Source of the DNA: Eledone cirrhosa
Lineage: Eukaryota
DNA length: 64,000 nt
Assembly: GCA_964016885.1 (NCBI GenBank)
Contig: OZ024747.1
Location: forward strand, 70,494,001-70,558,000
Direction: 5' to 3'
Below are positions 3,595 through 58,889 of the stretch, piece by piece. The notes under the pieces were generated by a model. The model did not search any database. It saw only the letters and a program-made list of their open reading frames with translations, and was not told where the DNA came from. The position numbers were made by a program, and so were the translations under genes. How positions within the stretch are numbered: the stretch's first letter is position 1; the number at the start of each line of letters is the position of its first letter.

Positions 3595-3639
<45 letters not shown>

Positions 3640-4119: not shown

Positions 4120-4260
4120 TAACAAAGGAATTGTGGTAAGGAAACAAATGCACCAAAACGCACCAGAGTACTCAACACTTTGGTTAGCAGAGTGGGAAAT
4201 AGGAAAAAGTACTCTGGTGCGTTATGGTCCATTTGGTTACTTACCACAATTCCTTTGTTA
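4120..4260. repeat. 53-bp imperfect inverted repeat (35-nt loop) of a dispersed, (TA)n-associated element end
   Basis: 4120-4172 TAACAAAGGAATTGTGGTAAG...GCACCAGAGTACT is the reverse complement of 4208-4260. The same sequence occurs unrearranged at 39207-39310. Confidence 0.9.
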
Positions 4261-4327
4261 TATATATATATATATATATATACATATATACGTAAGTATA
4301 TATATATATATATACATACATATACAT

Positions 4328-4359
<32 letters not shown>

Positions 4360-4384
4360 GTGCGTGGGTGTTTGGGTGTAAATG

Positions 4385-4502
4385 ACAGTCTTCTGCAGTT
4401 ACTGTCTATTAAATTCTATTCACGAAGCATAGATCAACGAGAGGCTAAGGGACTGAGCTTAGTACATGTAGTTGCAAAACGAACTTCTGAATCACGCAGC
4501 AA
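4385..4502 (-). mobile_element. Degraded tRNA-derived SINE fragment (octopus OR-like)
   Basis: CAGTTACTGTCTATTAAATTCTATTCACGAAGC...GGGACTGAGC...ATGTAGTTGCAAAACGAACTTCTGAATCACGCAGC resembles the reverse strand of octopus tRNA-SINE heads. Recognised from memory; internally deleted. Confidence 0.45.
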
Positions 4503-4508
4503 TATCTG

Positions 4509-4642
<134 letters not shown>

Positions 4643-38429: not shown

Positions 38430-38431
<2 letters not shown>

Positions 38432-39190: not shown

Positions 39191-39206
39191 ATATATATAT
39201 ATATAT

Positions 39207-39320
39207 AACAAAGGAATTGTGGTAAGGAACCAGATGGACAATAACGCACCAGAGTACTCAATACTTAGGGTAGTAGAGTGGGAAATAGGAAAAAGTATGA
39301 CCCCGACGGCAGAGCTCATG
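39207..39320 (-). mobile_element. Dispersed element terminus abutting (TA)n, probably a PLE end
   Basis: Homologous to 4120-4210. Its GGAAAAAGTATGACCCCGACGGC motif recurs at ~4006 and ~629, next to PLE coding remnants. Confidence 0.6.
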
Positions 39321-39730
39321 GGAAGATTGTACTTGTCAAGTGGATTGGTTAAAATTTGTTGTAAACACAAATAAGTCTATCATGGCATTTGGTGGGAGGT
39401 AGGGGTGGCTGAACTTGCCTGTAGAACAATAGGGGAGTGAGTGGAGCGGTCAAGCGTTGAAAGTGATATGTATACAGCAGATTCTAAGGATAGTGTATGA
39501 AGTGGAGGAGGGAGGTTATAGAATAGGTAAATCGAATGTGAGTAGGAGACAATAAAAGATAATCGAAAGAAATAAAAAAATATATAAAATTAGATAGTGA
39601 GAAATTAATAAAAAATATCACAATGCTATCTTACAATTACAGGGTAATAAGTTGAGAATAGAAAAAACTTGTAGAAATTGTAACAAAACTGATAAAAAAT
39701 TAAAGGGGTTTAACACTTCTGCTATAAGTA

Positions 39731-40019
39731 GTAAATTGTTTACTTTGCATAGGTGCCAGTGGATCACCCTGCCCATCACACCATGTCTCCAGCCTTTATA
39801 GTGATGCTGGGCTAGGTGTTTACACTCGGATACAATGTGGGCCACAGTCTCCTCTCTCTCTCCACAGATCCTACACAGTGGGCTAGCCTCCTCCTTGTAA
39901 ATATGGTGTTTCAGCCACTTCGTTTTGAGGGCCTGCTCTTGCGCAGCCATTAGCATTCCTTCTGTAGCCTTTTTAAGGTCTCCTCTTTTCAGCCAGTTCC
40001 ATGTCTGTGGATCTCTGAG
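39731..40019 (-). mobile_element. Dong/R4-clade family B, internal fragment (CCHC region); lacks the 3' end
   Basis: RDPQTWNWLKRGDLKKATEG...CRICGEREETVAHIVSEC...IHWHLCKVNNL is almost identical to 54361-54646. Its 5' junction abuts (ATT)n at 40020-40047. Confidence 0.93.
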
Positions 40020-40047
40020 TATTATTATTATTATTATTATTATTATT

Positions 40048-40423
40048 GTTCTTTGAGTCTCAGTCATTGATATTAGTTAACTGGAAAGTTTGTTGAAATG
40101 AATATCAAGCCACTACCTGCAGCCTCAGATATTCAGGACGTATCGGAGAGTTCTTGCTGTTCCCAGCAAGCATGCCTTTTGAAGTGTTCCAAAAAGCGGG
40201 GCGGGGCCAATTTTCTTTAACTATCCCTGGAAACTTTTTGAGATAGTACCTATTGCGTCTATGACAATCGGGACCACTTTGACTTCATGGCAGTTCCAAA
40301 TCCTTTTTACCTCCCACTTTAAGTCCTGGTATCGGTTAATTTTCTCCCTCTCCTTCTCTTGCACTCTCGTGTCGAATGGGCAGCCCACATCCACAATCAG
40401 GCACGATCTTTTTTCCTTGTCCA
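40048..40423 (-). mobile_element. Dong/R4-clade family B, 5'-truncated 3' fragment (RLE end plus 3' UTR)
   Basis: DKEKRSCLIVDVGCPFDTRVQEKEREKINRYQDL... plus a 3' UTR matching 53858-54231. Flanked by (ATT)n on both sides. Confidence 0.93.
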
Positions 40424-40443
40424 TATTATTATTATTATTATTA

Positions 40444-43400
40444 CAGTTGCATTTATCTTGCTTTATGTTCATACGAGTTATCACCGAGTCACAACCAGTG
40501 ATGTCAAGAGACAACAAGGTCCGCCATGTTCAAGAAAGAACATACATACTCACACATGCATCTTTAGTGTTTAGACTTGTGATGTACTTATATTGACAGA
40601 ATCTTCCTTAGTATATGGGCAGTTCCCATTAGTACTATCTTTTGTATTTCTCCTATACGCGGGTTTACTGTGATTTGCGATAAGTAATCATTAGACCCCT
40701 TAGGTATCATTCCCAGAGCGCCTACAACCACTGGTATTGTTTTAGTTCTCAATTTCCACATTTTTCCAATTTCTATCTCCAGGTCCTTATACTTGCTCAA
40801 TTTTTCAAATGTTTTTATAGATACATTCTTGTCTATTGGAACGGACATATCAATTAGCAGGCATACCCTCTTTTTAAAGTCCTTCAATATTATATCAGGT
40901 CTATTTGCATCTATTTTTCGGTCTGTTTGGATGCTAAAGTTCCACAAGATTGAGATGTGATCTTTTTCAAGTATGGGAGGTGGTTGATGCTCCCACCAAT
41001 TCTTTTGATGGGGCAGGTCAAAATGCTTACACATTATCCAATGTATGTATCGTGCAGCTCTGTCATGCCTGTTTAGGTATTCGGTTGGAGCTATAGGACT
41101 GCACATTGAAATTATATGGTCAATGGTCTCTGGTTGTTTTTTGCATACACGGCATAATGGGCTGCATCAATTTTTTATTATGTTGGCTTGGTAATTTTTT
41201 GTTGGCAGACACTGATCTTGTGCTGATATAATCAGTCCTTCAGTCTCCGATTTCAGTCCAGAGGATGCCAAACACTGATGGGTTAAAGTTTTGTCAACAT
41301 CAGGATTGTTAGCTCGTTTTGGGTATTTTCCATACGGAGGCTTTTCTTGCCATTTCTTAGCCAGTTTCTGTAGTAGTTCTTTCTTTGCAGTTACTTTTAC
41401 CTGCTTTGCTTTTTCTGTGTTTTCCATTTCAGCAGTAAATGGGAGTTCTGAAATTTGTAGTCCATTACTGTATCTTTGTGCATCTTTTGTAATGGAATAT
41501 GATCTTTTGATGCTTTCGTGTTTCAAAACGAGTTTGATCATCCAATCATGTGATTCCCTTAGATATGTGGATAATCCAATTGTTGCAGTTTTCAACGCAA
41601 TGTCTAACTGGATTAACCCACGTCCTCCTTCTTTCCTAGGGAGATATATTCTATCTGTATCTGCCTTAGGGTGATGCATTCTGTGCATGGTTAAGAATTT
41701 TCGAATTTTTGTATCGAGCCTACGGATCTCTGTGCTTGACCAGTTGATGACATTGTAACTGTAGGTTACTACTGGTATGGCAAGCGTGTTTATGTAAGAT
41801 TGCTCTTACTCTGCGGTAACATTCCTTCCTTATCCTTTCCCTCATTGTCGAGTGCTTGATTCCGTCTCCTTCACAAACACCTAGATATTTGTAAGTTTTT
41901 TCTTGATCAAGTTCTCTTATCACGTTCCCCCGATCAAGATTTATGTCTGAAGTCTTCAGCAGCTTTCCTCTGTGTACGTTGCTTTGGCGCATTTATCTAG
42001 TCCAAACTCCATTTTAATGTCATCACTAAACTGCTCCACAGTGGATAATAGCCCTTGCAATTGTTCATCATTTTTTGCAAATAGTTTCAGGTCATCCACG
42101 TAGAACAAGTGATTAATGGTTTTGTCATAGACTCTATATCCATGTTTTGTTTCATTGAGCATTTTACTTAATGGTATAAGTGCGATGCAGAATAAAAGCG
42201 GTGATAAAGAGTCACCCTGAATAATTCCACAATTAATATTAACTTCTCCAGCTTCCAGTGATTTTGTTTCACTATTCAAAAGGAGTGTCGTTTTCCATGT
42301 CTTCTTACTGAATGACAAAAGCCTCCTGACAACGGGGGATATTTTGAAAATCTCTAAACACTTTTCAATTCAACTGTGTGGTAAACTATCGAATGCTTTT
42401 TTATAATCTATCCAAGCAATTGATAGATTTTTGTGTCTATTATGACAATCTTCCAGTATCATTTTGTTAACCAAAAGCTGATCCTTACAGCCATATGAGC
42501 CTCGTTTACACCCTTTCTGCTCAATGGGAAATAGGTCATTTGCTATCAGGTGGTCATATGTATATTCAGTTAGGACTGATGTTAAAATGTTATACATTGT
42601 GGTCAAGCAAGTTATCGGTCTGTAATTTTTGGGATTGTTTGTCTCATCATTCTTCGGAAGCAGGAATGTAATGCCGTTAACTAGCCATGATGGTATCTTT
42701 TCTGGCTCCTTAACTATTTCATTGTAAAGTTGGGCTAACAGCTCATGAGACTCTGTGAAGGCATTTATCCAAAAATTTTGTATTTTGTCTTTTCCTGGGG
42801 ATTTCCATTTGCTGGTTTTTCTTAGAGCCAAGCGCAACTGTTCAACTGTTATATTTTCCCATGTTTGTTCTTCAAGGTGAGCTGTATCTTTCATTTGTCT
42901 GTCTATCCATGGGGCATGTATGTTATGAACTGTTTCTTCGGCCCAGATCTTTTCCCAGAATTCTTGCACTTCCTCCTTGGGTGGTATTGATTTAGCAGTT
43001 ATTGTTGACTTACCAATTTTTCTGTAGAAGTTTCTTTGGTTGTTTTTGAACATATTATTGTCCTTATAGAATCTAGATCGTTTTTCAAAGCGCCTTATAC
43101 GAGCAGCTTTGGCCGACACTTTTTGCTTGATTATTTCTATCAGCATGTCTATGTCACTTGTTGATTTTATACTGTACTTTCTTTTCAATTTTCTAAGTTT
43201 AGTTTGTTTAACATGTTCCCCTACTTTATAGTTTGTTAAAATTTCTATGTCAGATCGGAGAAGGTTTATTTGGCGATTGATGTTCTCTTGCCAAGTAGAT
43301 TTCTTGTGGGAATTCCTTTGTTTTTTCATCTTCACTCCACATAAGTGAGTGGTGACTTTAGCCAATGCATAATAGAGATGATTTAAATCAGTAATGTTTA

Positions 43401-44388
43401 GTTTGTTTGTGATGATAATGTTCTTGAGAATTATGTTAATCTTGTGTATTATCTTTTGGTTCTGTTTGGAGTTCTGGATCTTAGGGAGGGTGTCTCGTTG
43501 CCCCATGTCAGATTCTTTCATTTTCATCCATTCGATCATAATTTCATCCTTCAAGTTGGCAAGTTCATTCTCGTTCATTTCTTTATCATTTACGATCTCA
43601 TTATTTTCATTTCGAGTTTCATCTTGAGCATGCACTCCCTCCACTTTTTCGATCCTTTCTTTAATTTGTTCTGTTGGCAGTGATTCCGCCCCAACCCTGG
43701 GATTCGAAGTGTTACAATTTACCTCGTTTTCACTGACACATGTTTCATTTTCCCTTCGCTGACTTTGTGCCAATAGCTTGATCTGATCAATTTCTATATC
43801 AGTTAGTAACTTTTTTTTTACAATATTTCTTCGTATATTGGCTAGTTTGTTACTGTCAATATAGCCTCTGTTTTCGGGATGTTTCTTTTTCCAGTTGATA
43901 TATGTCTGTTCTGTATTCGATGTATTTGATGGGTAGTACATGGCAGTGTAGAAAGCCTCAAGGACTTCTTTATTATCTTCCCTTGACCATTTTTCTCTCT
44001 TTTTCTTTGGATTTCTTGGTGGTGAGCATGGAGGTCCAACAGTAGGAGTATTCCGGTTATGGGAGGTCTCCAGCTCCGAAGTAATGGGAAGGTTTGAACC
44101 ATTAGCTGATTTTTCGACCCCAGTCTGGTTCCTCTCTGAGGGACGCGGCCCTTTTTTACCCGGGTGACGGCCGATCCGGTATGAGATTTTATCATTAGAC
44201 ATTTACTTTATTTTGTCGCGTTTTATCCTTATCCGCCAAGGGGTAATCATTTCGTGTTACCACTTCTAGAACGAGTGTCAACCAAGACTAGAGGGGTCGT
44301 TCTCCCCTAGAGACACGGCTATTCCCCGCCGGCTGCCATACCGGTATTTCTTGGTCACGGGGTTTTCTTTTTTGTTGTTTTTTTAAAT
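40444..44388 (-). mobile_element. Dong/R4-clade non-LTR retrotransposon family A, apparently full length (~3.95 kb)
   Basis: Single-ORF architecture: N-terminal Myb-like motif (KWSREDNKEVLEAF...W...DSNKLANIRRNI), RT (SPGKD, NYRPITCL, IDYKKAFDS, QGDSLSP, YVDD), CCHC, and restriction-like endonuclease (RPDIIL...LIDMSVP...K..KY.DL). (ATT)n at 40424-40443 and 44391-44400. Confidence 0.95.
40588..44202 (-). pseudogene. Disrupted ~1,200-aa Myb-RT-CCHC-RLE polyprotein of Dong/R4 family A, copy 1
   Basis: Split across ORFs 42370-44202, 41956-42318, 41167-41688 and 40588-41106. It has a premature TGA at 42370 (TGG in copy 2), a frameshift near 41970, a 35-bp deletion at 41794 relative to copy 2, and a stop at 41167. 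Confidence 0.93.
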
Positions 44389-44444
44389 TGTTATTATTAT
44401 GAGTGGTTCCTTAGTGTGAGCATTGCGTGGCTTAAGAATGAAAT

Positions 44445-44500
44445 TATTAATAATTGTCTCCACTCCAGGCACAAGGCCAGCAATTACCCAGTGCATTACA
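44445..44500 (-). mobile_element. 3' fragment of the (ATT)-tailed SINE
   Basis: The reverse strand reads GTAATGCACTGGGTAATTGCTGGCCTTGTGCCTGGAGTGGAGACAATTATT. Confidence 0.8.
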
Positions 44501-44986
44501 ATAATATAATATACTTTTTGCTGAAGTTGCCTGTTATTGTTGTTGGCTATGTCGGTGGTGGTGCTGGGGCTTTTTATATTGTTGGTGAGGAAGTGGGGAG
44601 CAAGCAGTGCCATAGTTGTTGACGTTTGGCCGGTGGCCGGGTCACTAAGTAAATCTATTTATATCTTTTGCTAGCCTCTCACTTGTCTAGTGATACCGCC
44701 ACCTTCCCCTTTCTTAAGTTAACAGGGGAATAGTGGTGGTAGCAATAAAGGAGTGGTGGCAGCGGTGATGGCATAGTGGTAGCAATGATGGATGAAGTGG
44801 TGGCGGAGGTGGCGTTGTCGTTACTGAGTTTTGTTGAATGGACTAGTTTTGTTTGATATGTAGTATCTATGCGTTTGTGTGGCGTATGTTTAATATATAT
44901 GTTGACATATTCCCTTAATATTGGAATTAAACATTTTGTTAAAACTTGAGACAATAATAATAGTAATTATTATTATGATGCTTGGG

Positions 44987-45026
<40 letters not shown>

Positions 45027-45027
<1 letters not shown>

Positions 45028-47836
45028 AGTTGCATTTATCTTGCTTTATGTTCATACGAGTTATCACCAAGTCACAACCAGTGACCTCAAGAGACAACAA
45101 GGTCCGCCATGTTCAAGAAAGAACATACATATTCACACATGCATCCTTAGTGTTTAGACTTGTGATGTACTTATATTGACAGGATCTTCCTTAGTATATG
45201 GGAAGTTCCCATTAGTACTATCTTTTGTATTTCTCCTATACGCGGGTTTGCTGGGATTTGCGATATGTAATCATTAGACCCCTTAGGTATCATTCCCAGA
45301 GCGCCTACAACCACTGGTATTGTTTTAGTTCTCAATTTCCACATTTTTCCAATTTCTATCTCCAGGTCCTTATACTTGCTCAATTTTTCAAATGTTTTTA
45401 TAGATACATTCTTGTCTATTGGAACGGACATATCAATTAGCAGGCATACCCTCCTTTGAAAGTCCTACAATATTATATCAGGTCTATTTGCATCTATTTT
45501 TCGGTCTGTTTGGATGCTAAAGTTCCACAAGATTGAGATGTGATCTTTTTCAAGTATGGGAGGTGGTTGATGCTCCCACCAATTCTTTTGATGGGGTAGG
45601 TCAAAATGCTTACACATTATCCAATGTATGTATTGTGCAGTTCTGTCATGCCTGTTTAGGTATTCGGTTGGAGCTATAGGACTGCACATTGAAATTATAT
45701 GGTCAATGGTCTCTGGTTGTTTTTTGCATACACGGCATAATGGGATGCACCCATTTTTTATTATGTTGGCTTGGTAATTTTTTGTTGGCAGACACTGATC
45801 TTGTGCCGATATAATCAGTCCTTCAGTCTCCGATTTCAGTCCAGAGGATGCCAACCACTGATGGGTTAAAGTTTTGTCAACATCAGGATTGTTTGCTCGC
45901 TCTGGGTATTTTCCATACAGAGGCTTTTCTTGCCATTTCTTAGCCAGTTTCTGTAGCAGTTCTTTCTTTGCAGTTACTTTTACCTGCTTTGCTTTTTCTG
46001 TGTTTTCCATTTCAGCAGTAAATGGGACTTCTGAAATTTGTAGTCCATTACTGTATCTTTGTGCATCTTTTGTAATGGAATATGATCTTTTGGTGCTTTC
46101 GTGTTTCAAAACGAGTTTGATCATCCAATCATGTGATTCCCTTAGATATGTGGATAATCCAATTGTTGCAGTTTTCAACGCAATTTCTAACTGGATTAAC
46201 CCACGTCCTCCTTCTTTCCTAGGGAGATATATTCTATCTATGTCTGCCTTAGGGTGATGCATTCTGCGCATGGTTAAGAATTTTCGGATTTCTGTATCGA
46301 GCCTACGGATCTCTGTGCTTGACCAGTTGATGACATTGTAACTGTAGGTTACGACTGGTATGGCAAGCGTGTTTATGGCATCGATCCTATTCCTTGCATT
46401 CAATTCCGTTCTTAAGATTGCTCTGACTCTGCGGTAACATTCCTTCCTTATCCTTTCCCTCATTGTCGAGTGCTTGATTCCGTCTCCTTCACAAACACCT
46501 AGATATTTGTAAGTTTTTTCTTGATCAAGCTCTCTTATCACGTTCCCCCGATCAAGATTAATGTCTGAACTCTTCAGCAGCTTTCCTCTGGTGAACTCTG
46601 CTTTGGCGCATTTATCCAGTCCAAACTCCATTTTAAGTCATCACTGAACTGCTTCACAGTGGATAATAGCCCTTGCAATTGTTCATCATTTTTTGCAAAT
46701 AGTTTCAGGTCATCCATGTAGAACAGGTGATTAATGGTTTTGTCATAGACTCTATATCCATGTTTTGTTTCATTGAGCATTTTACTTAATGGTATAAGTG
46801 CGATGCAGAATAAAAGCGGTGATAAAGAGTCACCCTGAAAAATTCCACAATTAATATTAACTTCTCCAGCTTCCAGTGATTTTGTTTCACTATTCAAAAG
46901 GAGTGTCGTTCTCCATGTCTTCATACTGAATCACAAAAACCTCCTGACAACGGGGGATATTTTGAAAATCTCTAAACATTTTTCAATCCAACTGTCTGGC
47001 AAACTATCGAATGCTTTTTTATAATCTATCCAAGCAATCGATAGATTTTTGTGTCTATTATGACAATCTTCCAGTATCATTTTGTTAACCAGAAGCTGAT
47101 CCTTACAGCCATATGAGCCTCGTTTACACCCTTTCTGCTCAATGGGAAATAGGTCATTTGTTATCAGGTGGTCATATGTGTATTCAGTTAAGACTGATGT
47201 TAAAATTTTATACATTGTGGTCAAGCAGGTTATTGGTCTGTAATTTTTGGGATTGTTTGTCTCATCATTCTTCGGTAGCAGGAATGTAATGCCGTTAACT
47301 AGCCATGGTGGTATCTTTTCTGGCTCCTTAACTATTTCATTGTAAAGTTGGGCTAACAGCTCATGAGACTCTGTGAAGGCATTTATCCAAAAGTTTTGTA
47401 TTTTGTCTTTTCCTGGGGATTTCCATTTGCTGGTTTTTCTTAGAGCCAAGCGCAACTGTTCAACTGTTATATTTTCCCATGTTTGTTCTTCAAGGTGAGC
47501 TGTTTCTTTCATTTGTCTGTCTATCCATGGGGCATGTATGTTATGAACTGTTTCTTCGGCCCAGATCTTTTCCCAGAATTCTTGCACTTCCTCCTTGGGT
47601 GGTATTGATTTAGCAGTTATTGTTGACTTACCAATTTTTCTGTAGAAGTTTCTTTGGTTGTTTTTGAACATATTATTGTCCTTATAGAATCTAGATCGTT
47701 TTTCAAAGCGCCTTATACGAGCAGCTTTGGCCGACACTTTTTGCTTGATTATTTCTATCAGCATGTCTATGTCACATGTTGATCTTATACTGTACTTTTT
47801 TTTCAATTTTCTAAGTTTAGTTTGTTTAACATGTTC
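45027..47836 (-). mobile_element. Dong/R4-clade family A, copy 2, 5'-truncated and disrupted
   Basis: Colinear with 40444-43217 with scattered substitutions. ORFs 46931-47806, 46574-46924 (YMDD), 45465-46631 and 45171-45431. Same 3' end as copy 1. (ATT)n at 44987-45026 and 47840-47889. Confidence 0.95.
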
Positions 47837-47837
47837 A

Positions 47838-47889
<52 letters not shown>

Positions 47890-48098
47890 GGCGACCTACG
47901 TAGGAAATCGTATTATCGTGAGCTCCGCAAAGGTTTGTTATTTCCATTTGTTTAAAAATTGCCATTTATGGAAAATTTTATTGTAAACTGTTTATAAGCA
48001 CACATACATTGTTTTCCGAAAAGGACACCCAAAAAGATTGGGGCCTTGTGCCCAAAATTTTAACTTTTATTATTATCCAAAAATTTCTTTGAAAAAAA

Positions 48099-50082
48099 AT
48101 GGCTAATTCCCCTCTGCACGAAGCAGCTGAAAGCCTTCCTCACAAAATAACACCTCACACCGACACCACCATTGTAAATGTTACTACGTTTGCCAACACA
48201 AAAAAAAATATAAGCAGTAGCAATATTTTAAATTTGTCTCAGGCAGACATTCATTTCCCGCCATTACCAATGACTGCAGGTGTTAAACCCTCCACCACCA
48301 CCACCACCGCGACAACCACCACCACCACCACCACCACCGCGACAACAGAAACAAAAGAAGAAAAAAATAAATTAACTCGTGACGTCGAAATGAAATCAAG
48401 CAAAATGGACTCTTCCCCACCAAAGACGACTGACGTCACCACCACCACAACTGAAAATAAAATTAATATTAACGATAGCAACAACAACAACAATGACATT
48501 ATAAAACCGACCCTCAGTTTCGCCATCGTAGCAAAACAATTCGAAGCGTTCACGGTAACTCAAGAAGATTTAGAAAATGCCAAACAAATGGTAAAGAAAG
48601 ATGGGTACAGCGTCCCCCCCCCCACCTAATAAAATGGAGCATCGGCGCCTGTGCACCGTGTCGTATAGAACAATAAATGTAAAATCGCGCCGAGTGGAAC
48701 GGGCATTCGAGTCCCAAATCCAAAAAGCTTTGGGACATGTGTGGGCAAGAAAAACCCACATCAGACGTGGGCAAAAGTATGGAACCGTGGATGTGTTCTT
48801 TGAAACACCAGAGGAGGCTAGAGAACACTCCATGGCCCCATTAAAAAGTGACGACCTCACACTCGTCCCTAGCTATTGTGGCCAGAGACTCGTAAAGATC
48901 AGGGTGACCCACGTTCCACCGGCCATCGAAATTCCCTGGCTAATAGCGGCTGTCCTCGCCGGCATCGAAGCCAACACGAAAATAATAGCAGTAGCAAAAG
49001 AAAAGCAGGAAAACTGGTCCGGATCTGGGATGGAGCTCCTGATCCAAGCGGACCAAAAAAGCATTGAGGAGATCCCAGAGGTAATAGACCTCACTGACGG
49101 CAGCCACCTCACGGTAATTGTCGAGGGCAGAAGACCTAGGTGTGTCGTTTGTGGTGAAGGAACCCACCCAAGGGCTTTCTGCCCTCAGGCTAAAAGGTTG
49201 AGGCCACCTCTCCTACCCACCCCAGTGACACAACCATCAACACCACCAGTAGCAGAGATGGCAGCAACAACTGTAGCAGCAACAACAGAAGCAACTATAA
49301 CAGCAACAACCCCAGCAACAGTAGCAAAACCAACACCACTACCACCACCAGCAAAACCAACACCACCACCACCCAACGCTTCAGAACTAGCACCAGCGCC
49401 TACACCATCCACCACACCACAACCAAAACTAACGGCTGTGGAGGATTTTCCACTCCCCGGCCTATCACAACTGGAGACAGATTGTGACGACGAGGAGTGG
49501 GAAACGATATCCGGAAAAAAAAAAAGAAACCAAAAAAGAAAAAATTCTCTTCCTTCCCCCTCCAAAAACAAAATACAGAGGGAAACAAATAAACTAAGAA
49601 ACAAAAAAGTTAGGACAGATATGCCACCATCCACACCAGCATCACCAACCCCATCAACTCAAACACCAACACCATCACCATCATTATCCCCAGCACCACC
49701 ATCACCTACACCACAAAAGTCACCAAAAAGCGAAACAGAAACAAACCCACAACAAACGCAAACAAAACAAAACAACCAAAACGATACACACTACACAGCA
49801 TTAAATTTGAACAACAAGCAATTATTACACTACATCCAACACAACACCAGCATCACAGAAAAAGACTACACAACAACCCCAAAATTCACACCACCTCCAC
49901 ACATACAAATCACTCGCATCACACAGAAAACGTACATGACACTAAAACAAAAATTCCCCAAAGACATCGGAGACTTCCGACAAGCACTCTCCAGGAGGAT
50001 TTATAAGGACATCCTTCCTGAGGAGGCCACAAGCAGTGAAAAGGATGGAAAAGCCGTCCTTCCCCTACGAGAAGTAAGGTAA
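48099..50082 (+). CDS. LINE ORF1 (RRM-like region plus CCHC zinc knuckle, Thr/Pro-rich linkers), ~660 aa, split by a one-base frameshift in a C10 run
   Basis: ORFs 48099-48629 and 48601-50082 overlap at the C run 48614-48623, and removing one C fuses them. Motifs: YGTVDVFFETPEEA, V.I.V..VPP.I, and EGRRPRCVVCGEGTHPRAFCP (CX2CX4HX4C), typical of Tx1-type ORF1. Confidence 0.85.
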
Positions 50083-50116
50083 GTGGTCTTTCCCATCTTT
50101 TCCACTCCTTTTCAAC

Positions 50117-53100
50117 ATGACCTCACTCAGAATAGGCAGCATAAATGCGCGTGGCTTGGGGTCGTCATGGAAGCAGGGCCACCTGCTCAACGACCTCAGG
50201 TCACTAAACATAGATGTAGTGGCCATCAGCGAGACCAGAATCTTCGAAGCACAGGCTTTCGCACCGATCTTCGGCGGCTACGATGTGTACGCATCTCCCA
50301 GCCGTCCGGGATCGGGGGGAGGAGTTGCTGTGCTTTTTCGGAGAGGTTTGGATCTTGCCATACGGGCCATCTTCCTGGTCCCAGAAGGTAAGTTGGTGGT
50401 GCTGGACGTGACCAGCGGAGACGGGCAAGCTTTCAGGTTAGTGGCCGTCTATGCCCCGACAGGAGCAGGGCGGCCTGATTTCTTCCGGCGTCTGGAGACC
50501 TTTCTTGGAACGTCCCGCTCTTTAGTGTTAGTGGGCGACTGGAACGGGATCTTAGATGCACGCTGGGATTGTGTGGGATTAGTGGATAGGGAAGGAGGGT
50601 GCAAGAGTCTCACCAACCTGCTCAGACGTTTTGAACTGTCTGACAGGTACCGAATGGATTTCCCGAATGTACCAATGTGGACTTGGACAAATCGCATAGG
50701 GTCATCCAGATCATATCTAGATAGAGTATTTTGTAGGGAAATAGATAGGTCTAGCATAGGCTGTCCACAATTCAAGATAGTCAGCTACACGGACCACAAA
50801 TTCGTGATCTGTGTGCTTGACTTAGATAGGCTTCATAGACGAGGACCCGGCTACTGGAAGTTAAACGCGTCCTTACCAGCGCGCAAGGCCTACAGAGACC
50901 GGATTAGCGAACTAGTTAAGCGGGCGTTGACGGGGGCCATCGTCAACAACAAGTGGTGGTTTGCTCTGAAAAGAGCGATTAGAATAGAGTCCATTAGGTT
51001 TAGTAAGACTTTATCAATAGAGAAAAATAGAGCAGAGGGAGAATTAGTTAGAAAATTAGATGAGGCGCTTAGCAAAGGCATCGCGACCGACGTACTTGCG
51101 GCGAAATTGGCCCTTGACCAATTCTTCAATGCAAAGCACGAAGGAGGCTGCGTTGTCAGAGCTAGGGTGCGTGCTCTCAGACACGAGGGGACGAAAGCCG
51201 TTCAATGGGCCCGAGTGGCGGAGGCGCGTCGTGGCAACAAAGCCACGATCCGGTCTTTGGTGGACCACGACGGGCGCATGCTACTCGATCCCGGGCAAAT
51301 GTGTGAAGCTTTTCAGCCACACTTCGCTCAACTGTTCGGGGGCAGTGGCGGGCCGGATCGAGGGATGGACTTTAGTGTCTACCTCGACGGACTGCCGCGG
51401 CTTTCGGCCACTGAGGCGGAGTGTTGCGAAAAGCCGATAACAACCGCTGAAGTACGGGATGCAATGACTAGTTGCAGAAGGGGTAAATCGCCTGGTTTGG
51501 ATGGTCTGCCCTATGAACTTTACGTACAAATGCCAAACTTGTTCGGAGGCCTCTTGGCGGACGTCTACTGCAACTGGCAACAGAACGGGAGAATTCCCAG
51601 TTCTGTGAGCCCAGGAGCGGTGGCGCTGCTGAGAAAGGATCCGAACAAGGGAGATAACATAGATAATTTTAGGCCCATAACTCTGCTAAACACAGAGTTC
51701 AAGATTTTGGCCAAGGTGCTAGCAAAGAGGTTGGCGCTTGTCGTTGGTGGTCTGGTGGGAGAGGCACAGACATGCGCCATTCCCGACAGATCCATCCACG
51801 ACAACCTCCACCTCATGCGATACATCGTAGAGAGGGTAGCTAGGGAACCTGGCACGGGTGGGTCTTTGATCAATTTAGATCAGTCGAAAGCCTTCGATAG
51901 GGTCGACCATCGTTACCTAACGGCAGTCCTGAGGGCGGCTGGCTTTGGGCCCGTCTTCAGAGGCTGGATCGCTGCCATGCACAGCGACATCTGCTCTGTA
52001 GTGAGAGTGAACGGTCACCTTTCGGAACCGTTCAACATCATGCGCTCGGTCCGCAAAGCATGTCCCCTCTCGTCCCTACTGTACGTATTGACTCTCGAGC
52101 CATTACTGCACAAACTGGAGACGTTGAGGGGGGTCCCGCGCGAACTAGGATGCGGAAGATCCGTGTCAGCATATGCCGACGATGTCACCGTAGTGGTGTC
52201 GAACGCCAAACACATCGAGGCGATCGGCACTACACTAAGAGAATACGAAGCGGTGACAGGAGCAATGATCAACCAGGAAAAGTCAGTGGGCCTGCAGCTC
52301 GGCACCTGGAGAGGTAGGTCCATGCCGTCCAACAGCGTCGTCGGGCGCTGGATGGACGGACCGGTTAAATTGCTAGGGTCTGGTTCGGTCCGGACCTCCA
52401 GACGGACAAAAAACTGGGACGAGGTGACGAGCAGGGTGGCTTCTCTCACCCAGAAATGGGCCGAGAGGAAGCTATCCCTGAAAGGTCGAGCGGAGGTGGC
52501 GAATGCGTACATCGCATCCGTCATCTACTACCGCCTGACCGTCGTACCTTGTCCTAAGCCCCGCCTGACTGCGCTGGAGCGTTTGCTCTTTCGCTTCTTG
52601 TGGAAGGGACGCGCCCCGATGGTCAGGCGGTCCATCTGCTGTCAACACCCGCTACGTGGAGGGCTGGGCATGCCGTGGCTGATGATGCGCAGACACGCGC
52701 TCAGGCTACGACATCTCCACCTCTTCCTCGACGGTGATCAGGTGTGGTCGCCGTTTGCAAGACACGTTTTTCCCCAGCTCGTCTCCTTGACGGAGCTGCA
52801 GTCCTGGGTCAAGCGAAGACCGAGAGGGAGCGCTTGGAGACTGGAATGTCTTCAGGCGCTCACAGCCCTCGACCAATCGGGCAATGTGATCGGTGGAAAC
52901 TCCACCTTGGCGTTCTATAGGGGATTAGTGGAGGGGAAGAGCGACGACGTACTTGGAGAAACTCTAGGCGTCGACGAAAATCAACTAGCCAATCTCTTCG
53001 GAAGGACTTTCGGGCCGGGGCTTATGGACAACTTCCAGAAATCCCTGGCCTGGCAGTGCTACCGAGGAGCTTTGCCAGTTCGGGATAAACTCTACAGGCA

Positions 53101-53539
53101 TGGAGGTGCCGTCAGCCGGGCATGTCCGAGATGCACGCAGGGCGACGAAACCGTCCTGCACGCACTCGTCCAGTGTCCGAACATTGCTGACTTGTGGGTT
53201 TATGTCGAACACCTGCTGTCACGTGTAGGACGGATCCGGCTATCAGCTGAGTCCATCGTGAGGATTGCCCCGCCCCCTTCCTTTAGCCTGGAAGGGCAGG
53301 CAGTTTGTATCTGTCTGGTGGCCATGGCGAAAGAGATAGTATGGTGGACACGTTTGAAAGGGCTGAAGACGAGCACTTACCTCTTCGGTGATGCCCTGAT
53401 TAACTTTTTCAAATTTCATTTGAAAAGGAAAATCAGGGTAGAGAGGGAAGTGCTCTCTTCCCAGCATTTTGTTGAAAGATGGGTGAGAGAAGCAAGAATG
53501 GCCCGAGTGAATGGGCCGACTCTGAGTATATATCTGTAA
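50117..53539 (+). CDS. LINE ORF2: AP endonuclease, reverse transcriptase and C-terminal Cys-rich domain (1140 aa)
   Basis: APE motifs SINARG, ISETR, VYAP, GDWN, YLDRVF, YTDH; GPGYWKLN linker; RT motifs KSPGLDGLP.E.Y, FRPITLLN, DQSKAFDRV, YADD; L1/Tx1-type LSLKGRA and GGLG.P; CPRC...ETVLHALVQC. Confidence 0.96.
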   Translation: MTSLRIGSINARGLGSSWKQGHLLNDLRSLNIDVVAISETRIFEAQAFAPIFGGYDVYASPSRPGSGGGVAVLFRRGLDLAIRAIFLVPEGKLVVLDVTSGDGQAFRLVAVYAPTGAGRPDFFRRLETFLGTSRSLVLVGDWNGILDARWDCVGLVDREGGCKSLTNLLRRFELSDRYRMDFPNVPMWTWTNRIGSSRSYLDRVFCREIDRSSIGCPQFKIVSYTDHKFVICVLDLDRLHRRGPGYWKLNASLPARKAYRDRISELVKRALTGAIVNNKWWFALKRAIRIESIRFSKTLSIEKNRAEGELVRKLDEALSKGIATDVLAAKLALDQFFNAKHEGGCVVRARVRALRHEGTKAVQWARVAEARRGNKATIRSLVDHDGRMLLDPGQMCEAFQPHFAQLFGGSGGPDRGMDFSVYLDGLPRLSATEAECCEKPITTAEVRDAMTSCRRGKSPGLDGLPYELYVQMPNLFGGLLADVYCNWQQNGRIPSSVSPGAVALLRKDPNKGDNIDNFRPITLLNTEFKILAKVLAKRLALVVGGLVGEAQTCAIPDRSIHDNLHLMRYIVERVAREPGTGGSLINLDQSKAFDRVDHRYLTAVLRAAGFGPVFRGWIAAMHSDICSVVRVNGHLSEPFNIMRSVRKACPLSSLLYVLTLEPLLHKLETLRGVPRELGCGRSVSAYADDVTVVVSNAKHIEAIGTTLREYEAVTGAMINQEKSVGLQLGTWRGRSMPSNSVVGRWMDGPVKLLGSGSVRTSRRTKNWDEVTSRVASLTQKWAERKLSLKGRAEVANAYIASVIYYRLTVVPCPKPRLTALERLLFRFLWKGRAPMVRRSICCQHPLRGGLGMPWLMMRRHALRLRHLHLFLDGDQVWSPFARHVFPQLVSLTELQSWVKRRPRGSAWRLECLQALTALDQSGNVIGGNSTLAFYRGLVEGKSDDVLGETLGVDENQLANLFGRTFGPGLMDNFQKSLAWQCYRGALPVRDKLYRHGGAVSRACPRCTQGDETVLHALVQCPNIADLWVYVEHLLSRVGRIRLSAESIVRIAPPPSFSLEGQAVCICLVAMAKEIVWWTRLKGLKTSTYLFGDALINFFKFHLKRKIRVEREVLSSQHFVERWVREARMARVNGPTLSIYL

Positions 53540-53857
53540 ACTAAAGGTGGAAAACTGGGAGAGGGCACTTGCCTTGGTGGTCAGGGTCATTGTGGCTTTT
53601 TACTGGGCTTTCTCCACAAATGTCCCTCCGAAGTCTCCCTCCTATTGGGGAATTTTTCATTTTTATTTTTTGTTACATCCTCTGTTTTTGTTTTTTACAC
53701 GCAGAAATGCCCATTTGTACCGTCCTGCATTGTCCTGCACTGTCCTTAATGTCTACTTTATGTAAACCCTTGTGGTTAATAAAGAAATCATTATTATTCA
53801 TGTTATTATTCGTGTTATTATTATTATAATTATTATTATTATTATTATTGTTGTTAT

Positions 53858-56627
53858 TCCTTGAATCTCAGTCATTGATGTTGGTTAACTGGAAAATCCG
53901 TTGGAATGAATATCAAGCCACTACCTGCAGCCTCAGATATTCAGGACGTATCGGAGGGTTCTTGCTGTTCCAAGCAAGCATGCCTTTTGAAGCGTTCCAA
54001 AAAGCGTGAAAGGGCCGATTTTCTTTAACCATCCCTGGAAACTTTTGGAGATAGTCCCCAGTGCGTTTATGACAATCGGGATCACTTTGACTTCATGGCA
54101 GTTCCAAATCCTTTTCACCTCCCACTTTAGGTCCTGGTATCGGTTAATTTTCTCCCTCTCCTTCTCTTGCACTCTCGTGTCGAAAGGGCGGGCCACATCC
54201 ACAATCAGACACGATCTTTTTTCTTTGTCCACAACCACCAGGTCAGGTCTATTGTGTTCCAGTTTTTTGTCCGTCTGTATCCTAAAATCCCACAGCACCT
54301 TCACCTGATTGTTCTCCATTACCGCCTCTGGCCTATGCTCATACCATTTCTCAGAATGTGGTAAATTGTTTACTTTGCACAGGTGCCAGTGGATCACCCT
54401 GCCCATCACATCGTGTCTCCAGCCCTTATAGTGGGTCTGGGCTAGGTGTTTACACTCGGACACAATGTGAGCCACAGTCTCCTCTCTCTCTCCACAGATC
54501 CTGCACAGTGGGCTAGCCTCCTCCTTGTAAATATGGTGCTTCAACCACTTCGTTTTGAGGGCCTGCTCCTGCGCAGCCATTAGCATTCCTTCTGTAGCCT
54601 TTTTGAGGTCTCCTCTTCTCAACCAGTTCCATGTCTGTGGATCTCTAAATTCAGTTTTCTCAAAGAAGGTACTATGAAGGGATTTTCCCTTAAGGCTGCT
54701 CTTCCTCCTTGATGTTATTTCCTCCTTGGACATCCCCTGGCCTACTGTCCCCTCCTTCAGTACAGTTCTGAGCATTGGCTCCTTACTATAGGTCACGTAT
54801 TTGTATAGGTTGTTTTTCTCCATCTGAACACAGTCCTCTATGCTGATAAGACCTCTTCCACCCTCAGATCTCCTTAGGTAGAGTCTATCGACGTCACTCC
54901 TCTTGTGGAACATGTTGTAGATAGTCAATAGCTTCCTAGTCTTCCTATCCATTTCTTTTTGTTCAGCAACATTCCATCTCAGAATTCCCGCACTGTACCT
55001 AATAATAGACACAGCTCGGGAATTTACTGCGCTTATGGCATTTCTGCTGTTCAGATGTGACTTCAATACGCTCCTTACTCTCCTTCATTTTTTTGTTCTT
55101 TATGCCATCAGCCTCCAGAACGCCCAAATACTTGTATCCTTCCTCAGAGTCAATTTCCTTTATCATCTCACCTGTTGGTATCTGGATCCCGTTACTTCTG
55201 CTCAACCTACCCCTCCTCATCACAATGACTCCATATTTACTAATACCAAACTGCATACATATATCACTGCTGAAAATACGGACAGTGTCAACAAGCACAT
55301 CCAACTCCTTCTCACTTTTCCCGAAGAGCTTAAGATCGTCCATGAAGAGGAGGTGATTGATGGTAAGCACTCCCTTTCCCAACTTGTATCCTGCTCTCAC
55401 TTTTCGCAGCATAATGGTCAAGGGCATCAGGGCAAGGACAAACAACAGAGGGGACAGGCTATCTCCCTGGAAGAAACCTCTATTGATCTTCACGCTTCCC
55501 AAGGATACTCCAGTTGATGTCAACTCTGTCTCCCAGGACCCCATACTCCTGCCCAGCAACTGTCTGATGTTATCTGCCACCCTGAAGATCTCCAGGCTTT
55601 TGGTGATCCAAGAATGAGGCACCATGTCAAATGCCTTTCTGTAGTCTATCCATCCCATGGCAAGATCAGTGTGTCTCCTCCTGCAATTCCCCATTATCAT
55701 CTTATCAATAAGTAACTGGTCCTTTGTACCACGTGACTTCTTTCGGCATCCTTTCTGTTCGTCCGGCAACAAGTTGTTTGTGTGGAGGTGATGGTAGATT
55801 TCCTCAGACACAATGCTCGTCAACAGTTTCCACATTACGGACAGACATGTGATAGGTCTATAGTTGGTAACATCATTACCCTTGATTCGGTCTTTCATTA
55901 TCAGAACTGTGGTACCTTTTGTCAACCACTCTGGCACCTCACCCGACACCAAGCAGTCATTGAACATGGCCGTCAGCTTCGGGTGGAGGGATGTTAAATT
56001 TTTAATCCAATACCCCTGCACACCATCTGGGCCTGGTGATTTCCAGTTGGTTAGTTTTTTGGCCTGCCCCTTAAGAGTTTCAACTGTGATACTCAAATCA
56101 GTTTGTTGGTGTGCCTGCTCACCGATCTCCCTCTGTACTGTCTCAATCCACCCTGCCTGGAGATTATGTCTAACATCCTGCTCCCATATTCCTCTCCAGA
56201 ATGTTTTAGTTTGCTCCGCCCCAGGGATCAAGTCGTTGCCTCTTTCTTTCCCCTCAAGCTGTCCAAACAGCATCTTCTGGTTGTTGTCGAACATGCGGTT
56301 CTGTTTATACTGACTGACTCTGTTCTCGTATCGCCTGATTGTTGCACTCTTTGCTACAATGCGTTGCTTCAGTTCCTCTATGATAATATTTAGCTTTTTC
56401 CTCCTAGTTTTGTACTTTATTTCCAGTCTATTTTTAGTGCCTATGTTTTTTAGTGTCCCATTCAGTAGTGACTCAAGCTTTCCTATGTCATTTCTCATTT
56501 CCCCGATTTGACCACTCAGTCGTTTCTTCCACCACGGCTCTGCTCTTTCTTGTCTGTCGTTTCCTCTCGCTTTTATACCAAGTAGTTTCCTCACCGTATT
56601 TGCTGTTGCTTTGAGGATATTGTTGCA

Positions 56628-56628
<1 letters not shown>
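53858..56628 (-). mobile_element. Dong/R4-clade family B, 5'-truncated (~2.8 kb), frameshifted
   Basis: ORF 54999-56630 (KSPGPDG, NYRPITCL, IDYRKAFD, QGDSLSP, FMDD) and ORF 53933-55066 (CRIC...H...C, HNRPDLVV...IVDV). Clearly diverged from family A. (ATT)n on both sides. Confidence 0.95.
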
Positions 56629-56660
<32 letters not shown>

Positions 56661-56662
<2 letters not shown>

Positions 56663-57649
56663 TCCTTGACGGAGCTGCAGTCCTGGGTCAAGCGAAGACC
56701 GAGAGGGAGCGCTTGGAGACTGGAATGTCTTCAGGCGCTCACAGCCCTCGACCAATCGGGCAATGTGATCGGTGGAAACTCCACCTTGGCGTTCTATAGG
56801 GGATTAGTGGAGGGGAAGAGCGACGACGTACTTGGAGAAACTCTAGGCGTCGACGAAAATCAACTAGCCAATCTCTTCGGAAGGACTTTCGGGCCGGGGC
56901 CTATGGACAACTTCCAGAAATCCCTGGCCTGGCAGTGCTACCGAGGAGCTTTGCCAGTTCGGGATAAACTCTACAGGCATGGAGGTGCCGTCAGCCGGGC
57001 ATGTCCGAGATGCACGCAGGGCGACGAAACCGTCCTGCACGCACTCGTCCAGTGTCCGAACATTGCTGACTTGTGTGTTTATGTCGAACACCTGCTGTCA
57101 CGTGTAGGACGGATCCGGCTATCAGCTGAGTCCATCGAGAGGATTGCCCCGCCCCCTTCCTTTAGCCTGGAAGGGCAGGCAGTTTTTATCTGTCTGGTGG
57201 CCATGGCGAAAGAGATAGTATGGTGGACACGTTTGAAAGGGCTGAAGACGAGCACTTACCTCTTCGGTGATGCCCTGATTAACTTTTTCAAATTTCATTT
57301 GAAAAGGAAAATCAGGGTAGAGAGGGAAGTGCTCTCTTCCCAGCATTTTGTTGAAAGATGGGTGAGAGAAGCAAGTATGGCCCGAATGAATGGGCCTTCT
57401 CTGAGTATGTGTCTGTAAAATTAAAGGTGGAAAACTGGGAGAGGGCACTTGCCCTGGTGGTCAGGGCCACTGTGGTCTTTTAATGGGCTTTCTCCACAAA
57501 TGTCCCTTGGAAGTCTCCCCCCTATTGGGGAATTTTTCTTTGTTATTTTATTTCAACCTCTGTTTTTTTACACGCAGAAATGCCCATTTGTACCGTCCTG
57601 TATTGTCCTGTACTGTCCTTAATGTCTACTTTATGTGAACCCTTGTGGT
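56661..57649 (+). mobile_element. Tx1-clade LINE copy 2, 5'-truncated, missing its last ~13 nt
   Basis: Matches 52782 onward (TELQSWVKRRPRG...). Its 3' UTR is visibly more diverged from copy 1 than copy 3's is. Preceded by (ATT)n at 56629-56661. Confidence 0.95.
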
Positions 57650-58128
57650 GGCCATGGCGAAAGAGATAGTATGGTGGACACGTTTGAAAGGGCTGAAGAC
57701 GAGCACTTACCTCTTCGGTGATGCTCTGATTGACTTTTTCAAATTTCATTTGAAAAGGAAAATCAGAGTAGAGAAGGAAGTGCTCTCTTCCAGCATTTTG
57801 TTGAAAGATGGGTGAGAGAAGCAAGAATGGCCCGAGTGAATGGGCCGACTCTGAGTATATATCTGTAAACTAAAGGTGGAAAACTGGGAGAGGGCACTTG
57901 CCTTGGTGGTCAGGGTCATTGTGGCTTTTTACTGGGCTTTCTCCACAAATGTCCCTCCGAAGTCTCCCCCCTATTGGGGAATTTTTCATTGTTATTTTCA
58001 TTGTTATTTTTGTTACATCCTCTGTTTTTGTTTTTTTACACGCAGAAATGCCCATTTGTACCGTCCTGCATTGTCCTGCACTGTCCTTAATGTCTACTTT
58101 ATGTAAACCCTTGTGGTTAATAAAGAAA

Positions 58129-58130
<2 letters not shown>
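57646..58130 (+). mobile_element. Tx1-clade LINE copy 3, 5'-truncated, with a complete 3' end
   Basis: Matches 53316-53789 and ends TAATAAAGAAATC followed by (ATT)n, exactly as copy 1 does. Confidence 0.95.
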
Positions 58131-58190
<60 letters not shown>

Positions 58191-58331
58191 TATTATTATA
58201 TATTATTATTATTATAATATATATATATTATTATATATATTATTATATATATTATTATATATATTATTATATATATTATATATATTATATATATTATTAT
58301 TATTGTTATTATATATAATATATATATATAT
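58131..58331. repeat. (ATT)n tract grading into mixed (ATT)/(TA) low-complexity sequence
   Basis: Directly visible. Confidence 0.95.
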
Positions 58332-58332: not shown

Positions 58333-58539
58333 GGGCGGTGAATTGGCAAGTATCGGTAGAGGGTTGGACGCCATGCTTTCTAGCATAGTTACGTCCCTTT
58401 ACAGTCTGAGTTCAAATCGCCCGCCGAAGGTTAACTTTGCCTTTCATCCTTACGGGGTCGATAAAATAAAGTACCAGTAATGTACTGGATAATTGCTGGC
58501 CTTGTGCCTAAAGTAGAAACAATTATTATTATTATTATA

Positions 58540-58689: not shown

Positions 58690-58889
58690 NNNNNNNNNNN
58701 NNNNNNNNNNNNNNNNNNNNNNNNNNNNNNNNNNNNNNNNNNNNNNNNNNNNNNNNNNNNNNNNNNNNNNNNNNNNNNNNNNNNNNNNNNNNNNNNNNNN
58801 NNNNNNNNNNNNNNNNNNNNNNNNNNNNNNNNNNNNNNNNNNNNNNNNNNNNNNNNNNNNNNNNNNNNNNNNNNNNNNNNNNNNNNNNN
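58690..58889. other. Assembly gap (200 N)
   Basis: A run of exactly 200 N, typical of a fixed-size scaffolding spacer. Confidence 0.99.

What the first reader, a model, noticed from the sequence alone, without database searches (positions are those of the whole stretch)
39731..58190. (ATT)n microsatellite niche shared by three retrotransposon families with two different endonucleases in fixed opposite orientations
Eight copies are punctuated by (ATT)n tracts, all on the same strand (40020, 40424, 44391, 44987, 47840, 53790, 56629, 58131). All five Dong/R4 (RLE) copies are on the minus strand and all three Tx1-clade (APE) copies are on the plus strand (seen). Dong targeting of (TAA)n is established. 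Each insertion leaves target repeats on both sides, so the site regenerates and grows into a retrotransposon-only array. Convergent use of opposite strands of one microsatellite by unrelated nucleases is inference. A ~590-bp non-LINE spacer at 44400-44986 means at least two seed tracts were involved.
Basis: partly seen in the sequence, partly recalled or inferred. Interest (0 to 1): 0.75.

Follow-up and report, generated by a model that had tools for sequence, protein, structure and literature searches.

The report
Two retrotransposon classes share ATT repeats
Two unrelated kinds of jumping gene sit in the same three-letter ATT repeat across this animal genome, nearly always facing opposite ways and stacked into gap-free chains like this 18-kb one, likely because each one's enzyme cuts its own strand of the repeat and each insertion leaves a fresh landing site for the next.

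Summary
The array is real and the rule holds genome-wide. Eight copies (five Dong/R4-like, minus strand; three Tx1-like, plus strand) fill 39731-58130. In 569 de-duplicated junctions from 310 loci, 5' ends touch the repeat on a fixed strand (Tx1 67 of 75 ATT, 0 AAT; Dong 132 of 152 AAT, 1 ATT; chance under 0.3%). Neighbouring Dong-Tx1 pairs are antiparallel in 107 of 109. Corrections: the '590-bp non-LINE spacer' is the 5' UTR of a Dong copy, so the two-seed claim fails; the 44391 tract is internal to that UTR; the G/H join and the left edge have no ATT. Additions: target duplications of an abundant SINE, likely moved by Tx1, show a short target (pyrimidine|ATTAT, 9-20 bp duplication) that Tx1's own tail recreates. 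All 45 full-length Tx1 5' joins are in phase (ATT|G). Dong on (TAA)n, opposite-strand sharing (TRAS/SART) and APE/RLE convergence (Keno/Utopia) are known; I found no ATT-targeting Tx1 in the papers searched. The scan has already noted this system at eight or more other places in this genome. New variant of a known kind.

The parts
39731..40019 (-). Copy A: internal fragment of Dong family B, broken at its 3' end (no tract on the left), 5'-truncated
   Evidence: 93% to positions 3764-4052 of a 4560-bp full-length DongB
40021..40047 (+). (ATT)9 tract between A's 5' end and B's 3' tail
40048..40424 (-). Copy B: 3' end of Dong family B, 5'-truncated
   Evidence: 92% to DongB 4179-4559
40425..40442 (+). 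(ATT)6 tract between B's 5' end and C's 3' tail
40443..44986 (-).
   Evidence: 96% to DongA 370-4943 in one alignment; RT Pfam hits
44203..44986 (-). DongA 5' UTR (covers the supposed spacer 44400-44986 and the short internal 44391 repeat); holds an old SINE 3' relic near 44455-44499
44987..45025 (+). (ATT)13 tract between C's 5' end and D's 3' tail
45026..47837 (-). Copy D: Dong family A, 5'-truncated
   Evidence: 97.5% to DongA 2130-4943
47834..47889 (+). Head-to-head tract (ATT)16, which cannot be either neighbour's tail; begins with the 14-mer TTCATGTTATTATT, likely the left target duplication of copy E
   Evidence: The 14-mer occurs at 47834 and 53797 only and in no other of 310 loci
47890..53789 (+). 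Copy E: full-length Tx1-like element; ORF1 frameshifted near 48600; ORF2 50078-53539 open (1153 aa, APE-RT-zinc knuckle)
53790..53849 (+). Tail-to-tail compound ATT tract holding the second copy of the 14-mer (53797-53810)
53850..56628 (-). Copy F: Dong family B, 5'-truncated, frameshifted
   Evidence: 97% to DongB 1756-4560
56629..56661 (+). Head-to-head tract (ATT)11 between two truncated 5' ends
56662..57645 (+). Copy G: 3' part of a young Tx1 subfamily; lacks its last bases and tail; joined to H by microhomology
   Evidence: 99.4% to a copy on another contig, 96.4% to E
57646..58130 (+). Copy H: 3' part of Tx1
   Evidence: 99.6% to copies elsewhere, 96% to E
58131..58312 (+). (ATT)18 tail of H decaying into AT repeats
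58334..58536 (+). SINE-like element (188 bp) with an (ATT)5 tail, in Tx1 orientation; likely a Tx1 passenger

Best explanation
Two Dong/R4-like families and one Tx1-like family sit in ATT/AAT repeats in fixed, opposite orientations, likely because the Tx1 APE nicks the AAT strand and the Dong restriction-like nuclease nicks the ATT strand to prime reverse transcription, and each insertion likely leaves repeat on both sides, so later copies land in earlier copies' junctions and build the array one insertion at a time. Shown: strand rule, both-side repeats, independent origins of the copies, target duplications. Inferred: which strand is cut and where. For Tx1 the preferred site is likely pyrimidine|ATTAT(T) (bottom strand AATAAT|purine) with a second nick 9-20 bp on. 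Tx1's own 3' end (C followed by ATT) recreates this site, which would favour head-to-tail stacking. Full-length Tx1 RNA likely carries a few 5' AUU units that anneal to the target and give the uniform ATT|G join. No partnership between the two classes is needed.
For: Junction table from 310 loci, 569 unique junctions. Tx1: 3' 132 of 139 ATT, full-length 5' 45 of 45, truncated 5' 22 of 30, no 5' AAT. DongA: 3' 86 of 86 AAT, 5' 22 of 22 full and 49 of 56 truncated. DongB: 3' 105 of 106, 5' 9 of 10 full and 52 of 64 truncated (1 ATT). Broken 3' ends as an internal control: 10 of 11 have no repeat. Pairs joined by a tract: Dong-Tx1 antiparallel 107 of 109, Dong-Dong parallel 91 of 91, Tx1-Tx1 parallel 32 of 33. 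Head-to-head tracts (47842, 56629) cannot be tails. Window copies are closer to copies elsewhere than to each other (D 98.5% vs 96.2% to C; G 99.4% and H 99.6% vs 96% to E). Duplications with non-repeat content were found for 41 of 116 SINE and 2 of 65 Tx1 copies. Of these 43, 38 start with ATT; the base before is C 19, T 14, A 5, against a background of C 139 and C+T 337 of 682, p=5e-5 and 2e-6. At least 121 of 132 Tx1 tails have C before ATT. All 45 full-length Tx1 5' joins read ATT|G. Domain content differs as claimed.
Against: No cleavage was measured; nick positions inside a repeat are ambiguous. The Tx1 target motif rests mostly on SINE duplications, and Tx1 as the SINE's mover is inferred (15 of 20 shared 3' bases, shuffle p 0.006-0.01; a third, older Tx1 tail gave p 0.19). 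Only 1 weak Dong duplication was found in 110 copies, so how Dong regenerates the site is not shown. 8 of 30 truncated Tx1 and 18 of 120 truncated Dong 5' ends lack the repeat. Loci were top hits of seven searches seeded by window copies plus their neighbours, so they lean to young copies and junctions in one array are not independent. 6 of 9 random (ATT)5+ tracts are empty. Unexplained: full-length Tx1 almost always has an element upstream (44 of 45) but less often downstream. No empty site was found.
Confidence: 0.8

Rival explanations
1. The tracts are only 3' tails; elements insert without sequence preference and accumulate in permissive regions.
For: All three families end in the repeat; 29 of 75 Tx1 and 85 of 152 Dong 5' ends abut a tail of their own class.
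Against: 35 of 39 Tx1 and 49 of 61 Dong 5' junctions not beside a same-strand tail still carry the repeat, background under 0.3%; head-to-head tracts in the window; left copies of duplications begin with ATT in 38 of 43.
Confidence: 0.03
2. Targeting comes mainly from RNA-DNA pairing, not nuclease specificity: a loose AT-preferring nuclease nicks widely and only nicks that can pair with the AUU/UAA RNA tail prime reverse transcription.
For: The tail matches the target in each class; annealing helps priming in SART1 (PMC7265360, passages). This alone would fix orientation.
Against: The pyrimidine before ATT (33 of 38) lies outside the pairing region, and the SINE's own last base is A, so pairing cannot explain it. 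Swapping the endonuclease swaps specificity in SART1/TRAS1 (same paper).
Confidence: 0.12
3. The array grew by local duplication, recombination or co-transposition of neighbours rather than by serial insertion.
For: The G/H join lacks a tract; a tandem of full-length DongA with period about 4955 bp exists on C28; copy E looks mosaic (5' part 98.9%, 3' part 97.3% to best relatives).
Against: Window copies are closer to distant copies than to each other; Tx1 tails upstream of full-length copies are not shared-donor copies (median 94.4%, 1 of 120 pairs at 99.5% or more); truncation points differ.
Confidence: 0.05

Closest known systems
Dong (R4 clade; Bombyx mori, Anopheles, Biomphalaria, ostracod Dong1/2)
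   Same: Single ORF with RT and restriction-like nuclease; (TAA)n target, reported for most insects, molluscs and cnidarians (PMC7998251, passages; PMC3812793, passages).
   Different: Two families about 40% alike in protein share their first ~370 nt of 5' UTR (75%). No HDV-like ribozyme was found by Rfam or a crude descriptor, whereas B. mori Dong has one (PMC3774820, passages).
Kibi, Koshi and crocodilian Tx1 families (Tx1 clade, microsatellite-specific)
   Same: APE-type Tx1 elements specific for a microsatellite (PMC4494074, passages and section 15). Tx1 families and SINEU share a target in that paper, as Tx1 and the SINE appear to here.
   Different: Known targets are (TC)n, (TTC)n, (TTCC)n, (TTTC)n. 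An ATT target was not in the text read; figure 3 labels, supplements and Repbase were not seen.
TRAS1 and SART1 in Bombyx (TTAGG)n telomeric repeats
   Same: Two families use opposite strands of one simple repeat and form mixed arrays (PMC7265360 and PMC10088271, passages).
   Different: Both are R1-clade APE elements at telomeres; here an APE and a restriction-like element share a dispersed microsatellite at many interstitial loci.
Keno (Tx1 clade, APE) and Utopia (restriction-like nuclease) in U2 snRNA genes
   Same: Parallel evolution of one target by the same two nuclease types (PMC4640811, passages).
   Different: There the 3' flanks are identical (same site) in a low-copy RNA gene; here the strands are opposite and the target multiplies with each insertion.
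R2 elements whose RNA carries upstream target sequence
   Same: Uniform 5' junctions where the RNA keeps target bases that anneal to the site (PMC3774820, abstract and passages); proposed here for the ATT|G joins.
   Different: Shown for R2 through ribozyme cleavage; untested for this Tx1, with no RNA data.

Membership tests
Dong / R4 clade | Single long ORF with RT and no APE domain | tested here: met
   1213-aa (L205) and 1141-aa (L179) ORFs: RVT_1, no Exo_endo_phos
Dong / R4 clade | C-terminal CCHC knuckle, RHD and PD..D..K restriction-like nuclease | tested here: met
   Motifs in both families; best solved relatives are R2 proteins, aligned through this region, E 3e-27
Dong / R4 clade | No N-terminal C2H2 zinc fingers (unlike R2) | tested here: met
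   No C2H2-like pattern in the first 350 aa of either ORF
Dong / R4 clade | Divergent N-terminal Myb/SANT-like domain (PMC7998251) | tested here: inconclusive
   No Pfam hit to E 0.1; the paper needed HHpred, whose database is not available here
Dong / R4 clade | (TAA)n target in element sense | tested here: met
   3' 191 of 192 and 5' 132 of 152 junctions AAT
Dong / R4 clade | RT phylogeny groups with R4/Dong references | not testable with these tools
   No named R4 or Dong sequence was returned; the label rests on architecture and target
Dong / R4 clade | 5' HDV-like ribozyme (seen in B. mori Dong and R4; not clade-defining) | tested here: inconclusive
   Nothing relevant in Rfam; 0 hits with a crude descriptor built from recall and run without a positive control
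Tx1 clade | Two ORFs; ORF2 = APE + RT + C-terminal CCHC | tested here: met
Tx1 clade | Closer to Tx1 than to L1 | tested here: inconclusive
   The only hit with an element name is 'Transposon TX1 149 kDa protein', 295 bits, against 168 bits for human L1 ORF2; different searches and query copies, no tree built
Target-specific Tx1 families | More than 20% of flanks are one sequence type (criterion of PMC4494074) | tested here: met
   67 of 75 5' and 132 of 139 3' junctions ATT
Target-specific Tx1 families | Endonuclease cleaves the target in vitro | not testable with these tools
   Bench assay needed

The most novel reading that the evidence does not exclude
A self-building niche: this Tx1 lineage has tuned its nuclease to the junction its own 3' end makes (C|ATTATT) and carries an AUU leader for in-phase 5' joining, while its SINE scatters new ATT seeds genome-wide. 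Dong exploits these Tx1-made tracts from the other strand, and the shared arrays let distant families trade 5' modules (shared Dong UTR, two Tx1 heads). The target would then be made by the elements, not supplied by the host.
Probability: 0.3. Interest if true: 0.7.

Novelty: new variant of a known kind. Interest (0 to 1): 0.5.

Why it matters
It joins two known patterns (opposite-strand sharing as in TRAS/SART, APE/RLE convergence as in Keno/Utopia) on a dispersed target that grows with use, in young high-copy families (40 copies identical over 141 bp on one contig). It gives a short, testable target for a Tx1 APE and many natural junctions for studying 5' joining. It would also help explain retrotransposon hotspots in large invertebrate genomes. 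Each ingredient has precedent and fixed orientation is expected of any site-specific element, so the surprise is moderate.

Tried and rejected
Two seed tracts: rejected. 5' transduction of upstream Tx1 tails with full-length copies: rejected. Local duplication as the main source of the array: rejected. One search counts were discarded because overlapping loci were not de-duplicated. The orientation exceptions (7 parallel Dong-Tx1 pairs) were mostly an artefact of a SINE piece inside one reference copy. After the fix 2 remain: an inverted 76% Dong-like piece (L110) and a SINE piece assigned to the Dong UTR (L172). The duplication counts were made before that fix, so a few SINE fragments were labelled Tx1 in its denominators. 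HDV-like ribozyme: none found, inconclusive. Dong target duplication: 1 weak case of 110 (L050). Expression: no RNA holder listed. Empty site: contigs of runs X1-X4 (one study, possibly the source) were short and swamped by repeat copies, uninformative. Pfam on eight other window ORFs gave nothing above cut-off. Paper searches for an ATT-targeting Tx1 or a Dong/Tx1 shared target found none; Kojima and Fujiwara 2004, the Tx1L endonuclease paper (not held), Repbase and all supplements were not seen and may bear on novelty.
Full report
Setting. The window is G000:C7:70494001-70558000 of a 3.0-Gb animal assembly. A cephalopod is my guess from the look of its repeats (recalled, not tested). In Octopus vulgaris, Dong-R4 and L1-Tx1 are among the recently active LINEs (1129 and 421 insertions; PMC13282606, passages); the passages returned for my terms say nothing on targets.

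Anatomy. Self-comparison, translation and Pfam and alignment to single natural full-length copies give, left to right: A (DongB fragment, minus), B (DongB 3' end), C (DongA, 40443-44986), D (DongA), E (full-length Tx1, plus), F (DongB), G and H (Tx1 3' parts). Seven ATT tracts separate or end them. DongA and DongB are about 39-47% identical in protein. Both have RT, CCHC, RHD and PD..D..K motifs and no APE. Tx1 ORF2 has APE, RT and CCHC.

Corrections. The 'spacer' matches the region upstream of the DongA ORF at many other loci, and C aligns in one piece to DongA 370-4943. It is 5' UTR, the short 44391 repeat is inside it, and nothing calls for a second seed. The G/H join has no tract (TGGT microhomology: a template switch or a later deletion), and A's left end is broken.

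Genome-wide test. Seven searches of the own genome (30 of about 40 scored matches kept each) and 100 fetched 10-kb stretches (60 around hits, 40 at round-number positions) gave 310 loci. I scored ends of copies at least 85% alike to a reference, 80 bp long and 200 bp from a locus edge, removed duplicates, ignored (AAG)n runs, and asked for 3 or more units within 25 nt: 569 junctions. Tx1: 3' 132 of 139 ATT (1 AAT, 6 none); full-length 5' 45 of 45; truncated 5' 22 of 30 (0 AAT). DongA: 86 of 86, 22 of 22, 49 of 56 AAT. DongB: 105 of 106, 9 of 10, 52 of 64 AAT (1 ATT). Broken 3' ends: 10 of 11 have no repeat. Background is 0.14-0.25% per side. Tails alone cannot explain this: 35 of 39 Tx1 and 49 of 61 Dong 5' ends that are not beside a same-strand tail carry the repeat. 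Tract-joined pairs: Dong-Tx1 antiparallel 107 of 109, Dong-Dong parallel 91 of 91, Tx1-Tx1 parallel 32 of 33, SINE-Tx1 parallel 15 of 15, SINE-Dong antiparallel 22 of 25. Pair orientation largely follows from the strand rule and is not separate evidence. The sample leans to young copies, and junctions in one array are not independent. In the 400 kb of arbitrary positions, 3 of 9 (ATT)5+ tracts touched these families (all in one locus) and 6 were empty, so the niche is not saturated.

Order and origin. Each window copy has its best relative elsewhere (A 96.5, B 97.1, C 96.9, D 98.5, E 98.4, F 97.2, G 99.4, H 99.6%), while C/D are 96.2% and G/E 96.4% alike. That fits serial insertion over time, with G and H youngest. 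A 14-mer with non-repeat content flanks E (47834 and 53797) and occurs in no other locus, likely E's target duplication. Its right copy has 2 ATT units and its left 16, so E likely gained ATT at its 5' end on insertion or by later slippage. Whether D came before or after E cannot be told.

The Tx1 target. Pure tracts hide duplications, but an abundant 188-bp SINE with an ATT tail (window 58334) often lands outside tracts. Duplications with non-repeat content were found for 41 of 116 SINE, 2 of 65 Tx1 and 1 of 110 Dong copies. Of the 43 SINE and Tx1 cases, 38 begin with ATT (ATTATT 27, ATTATA 7) and are 9-20 bp long. They follow C (19), T (14) or A (5, all in an older SINE tail), against a background of 20% C and 49% C+T (p 5e-5 and 2e-6). 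The two Tx1 cases (L020, L045) both read C|ATTATT. The SINE and Tx1 3' ends share 15 of 20 bases in register (p 0.006 and 0.01 for two Tx1 tails, 0.19 for a third; Dong tails 0.33 and 0.97). I infer that Tx1 moves the SINE and that its APE nicks AATAAT|purine, a pyrimidine-purine step as for L1 (recalled). At least 121 of 132 Tx1 tails read C then ATT, so each Tx1 would rebuild its preferred site.

5' ends. All 45 full-length Tx1 joins, of two different heads, read ATT|G, against 22 of 30 truncated joins with ATT (p 0.0003). Variable duplication lengths should give mixed phases, so a 5' AUU leader that anneals to the target is the likeliest reading, as shown for many R2 elements (PMC3774820, abstract and passages). 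Unexplained: for the same 27 full-length copies the upstream neighbour is a known element in 27 by script (26 by eye; one is a T-rich low-complexity match) and the downstream neighbour in 18 (p 0.002 by script). Upstream tails are not shared-donor copies.

Mechanism. Shown: strand rule, both-side repeats, independent copies, duplications for SINE and Tx1. Inferred from target-primed reverse transcription (established knowledge): the strand complementary to the RNA is nicked, so Tx1 cuts the AAT strand and Dong the ATT strand; tail plus split target leaves two tracts; later copies of either class enter them. Confidence 0.8.

Comparison. Dong on (TAA)n is known (PMC7998251 and PMC3812793, passages). 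Microsatellite-specific Tx1 families are known for other repeats (PMC4494074, passages and section 15). TRAS and SART share (TTAGG)n in opposite directions (PMC7265360 and PMC10088271, passages). Keno and Utopia are a Tx1-APE and restriction-like pair on one U2 site (PMC4640811, passages). PMC8967140 (passages) lists both families in coleoids without targets. No ATT-targeting Tx1 or Dong/Tx1 shared target appeared; Repbase, Kojima and Fujiwara 2004, figures and supplements were not seen. The clade labels rest on architecture, target and one named hit, not on a tree. Unreviewed notes of this scan describe the same system at eight other places in this genome; they are not independent support.

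Verdict. Real and genome-wide; new variant of a known kind; interest 0.5.

Noticed in passing
L194:1523-1890 vs L179 (DongB 5' end); L185, L186, L189, L192: DongA and DongB, about 40% alike in protein, share the first ~370 nt of 5' UTR (75%, higher in the first 110 nt). 4 of 30 DongA loci carry a UTR closer to the DongB type (83-87%), 3 with the same switch point near DongA 390: likely UTR exchange.
   Followed up: partly
L170:7404-9667: A second Tx1 head (different 5' UTR and diverged ORF1) on an ORF2 start 94% alike to copy E; 10 of the 45 full-length 5' joins are of this head.
   Followed up: partly
L197, L198, L189, L183 (Dong 5' ends): Several full-length Dong 5' junctions carry (AAG)n runs of 12-39 units between the AAT tract and the element start, likely slippage on the element's first bases.
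   Followed up: no
G000:C28:114441524-114464645 (L032, L034-L037): Tandem of near-identical full-length DongA copies with period about 4955 bp.
   Followed up: no
window 7355-26236: 18.9-kb satellite, 16-bp unit, about 1180 copies, 96% matches.
   Followed up: no
window 44455-44499 (DongA UTR 851-905): An old 3' piece of the SINE is fixed inside the DongA 5' UTR.
   Followed up: partly
window 58690-58889: A 200-N assembly gap lies 560 bp right of the array, so the right flank is not fully resolved.
   Followed up: no
window 38430-38669, 38956-39194 and 39210-39700: A 240-bp direct duplication (95%) and further high-copy repeat sequence left of the array.
   Followed up: no
L014:~2043, L021:~1501, L033: Rare tracts that switch from AAT to ATT mid-run; they account for the two wrong-strand calls.
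   Followed up: no
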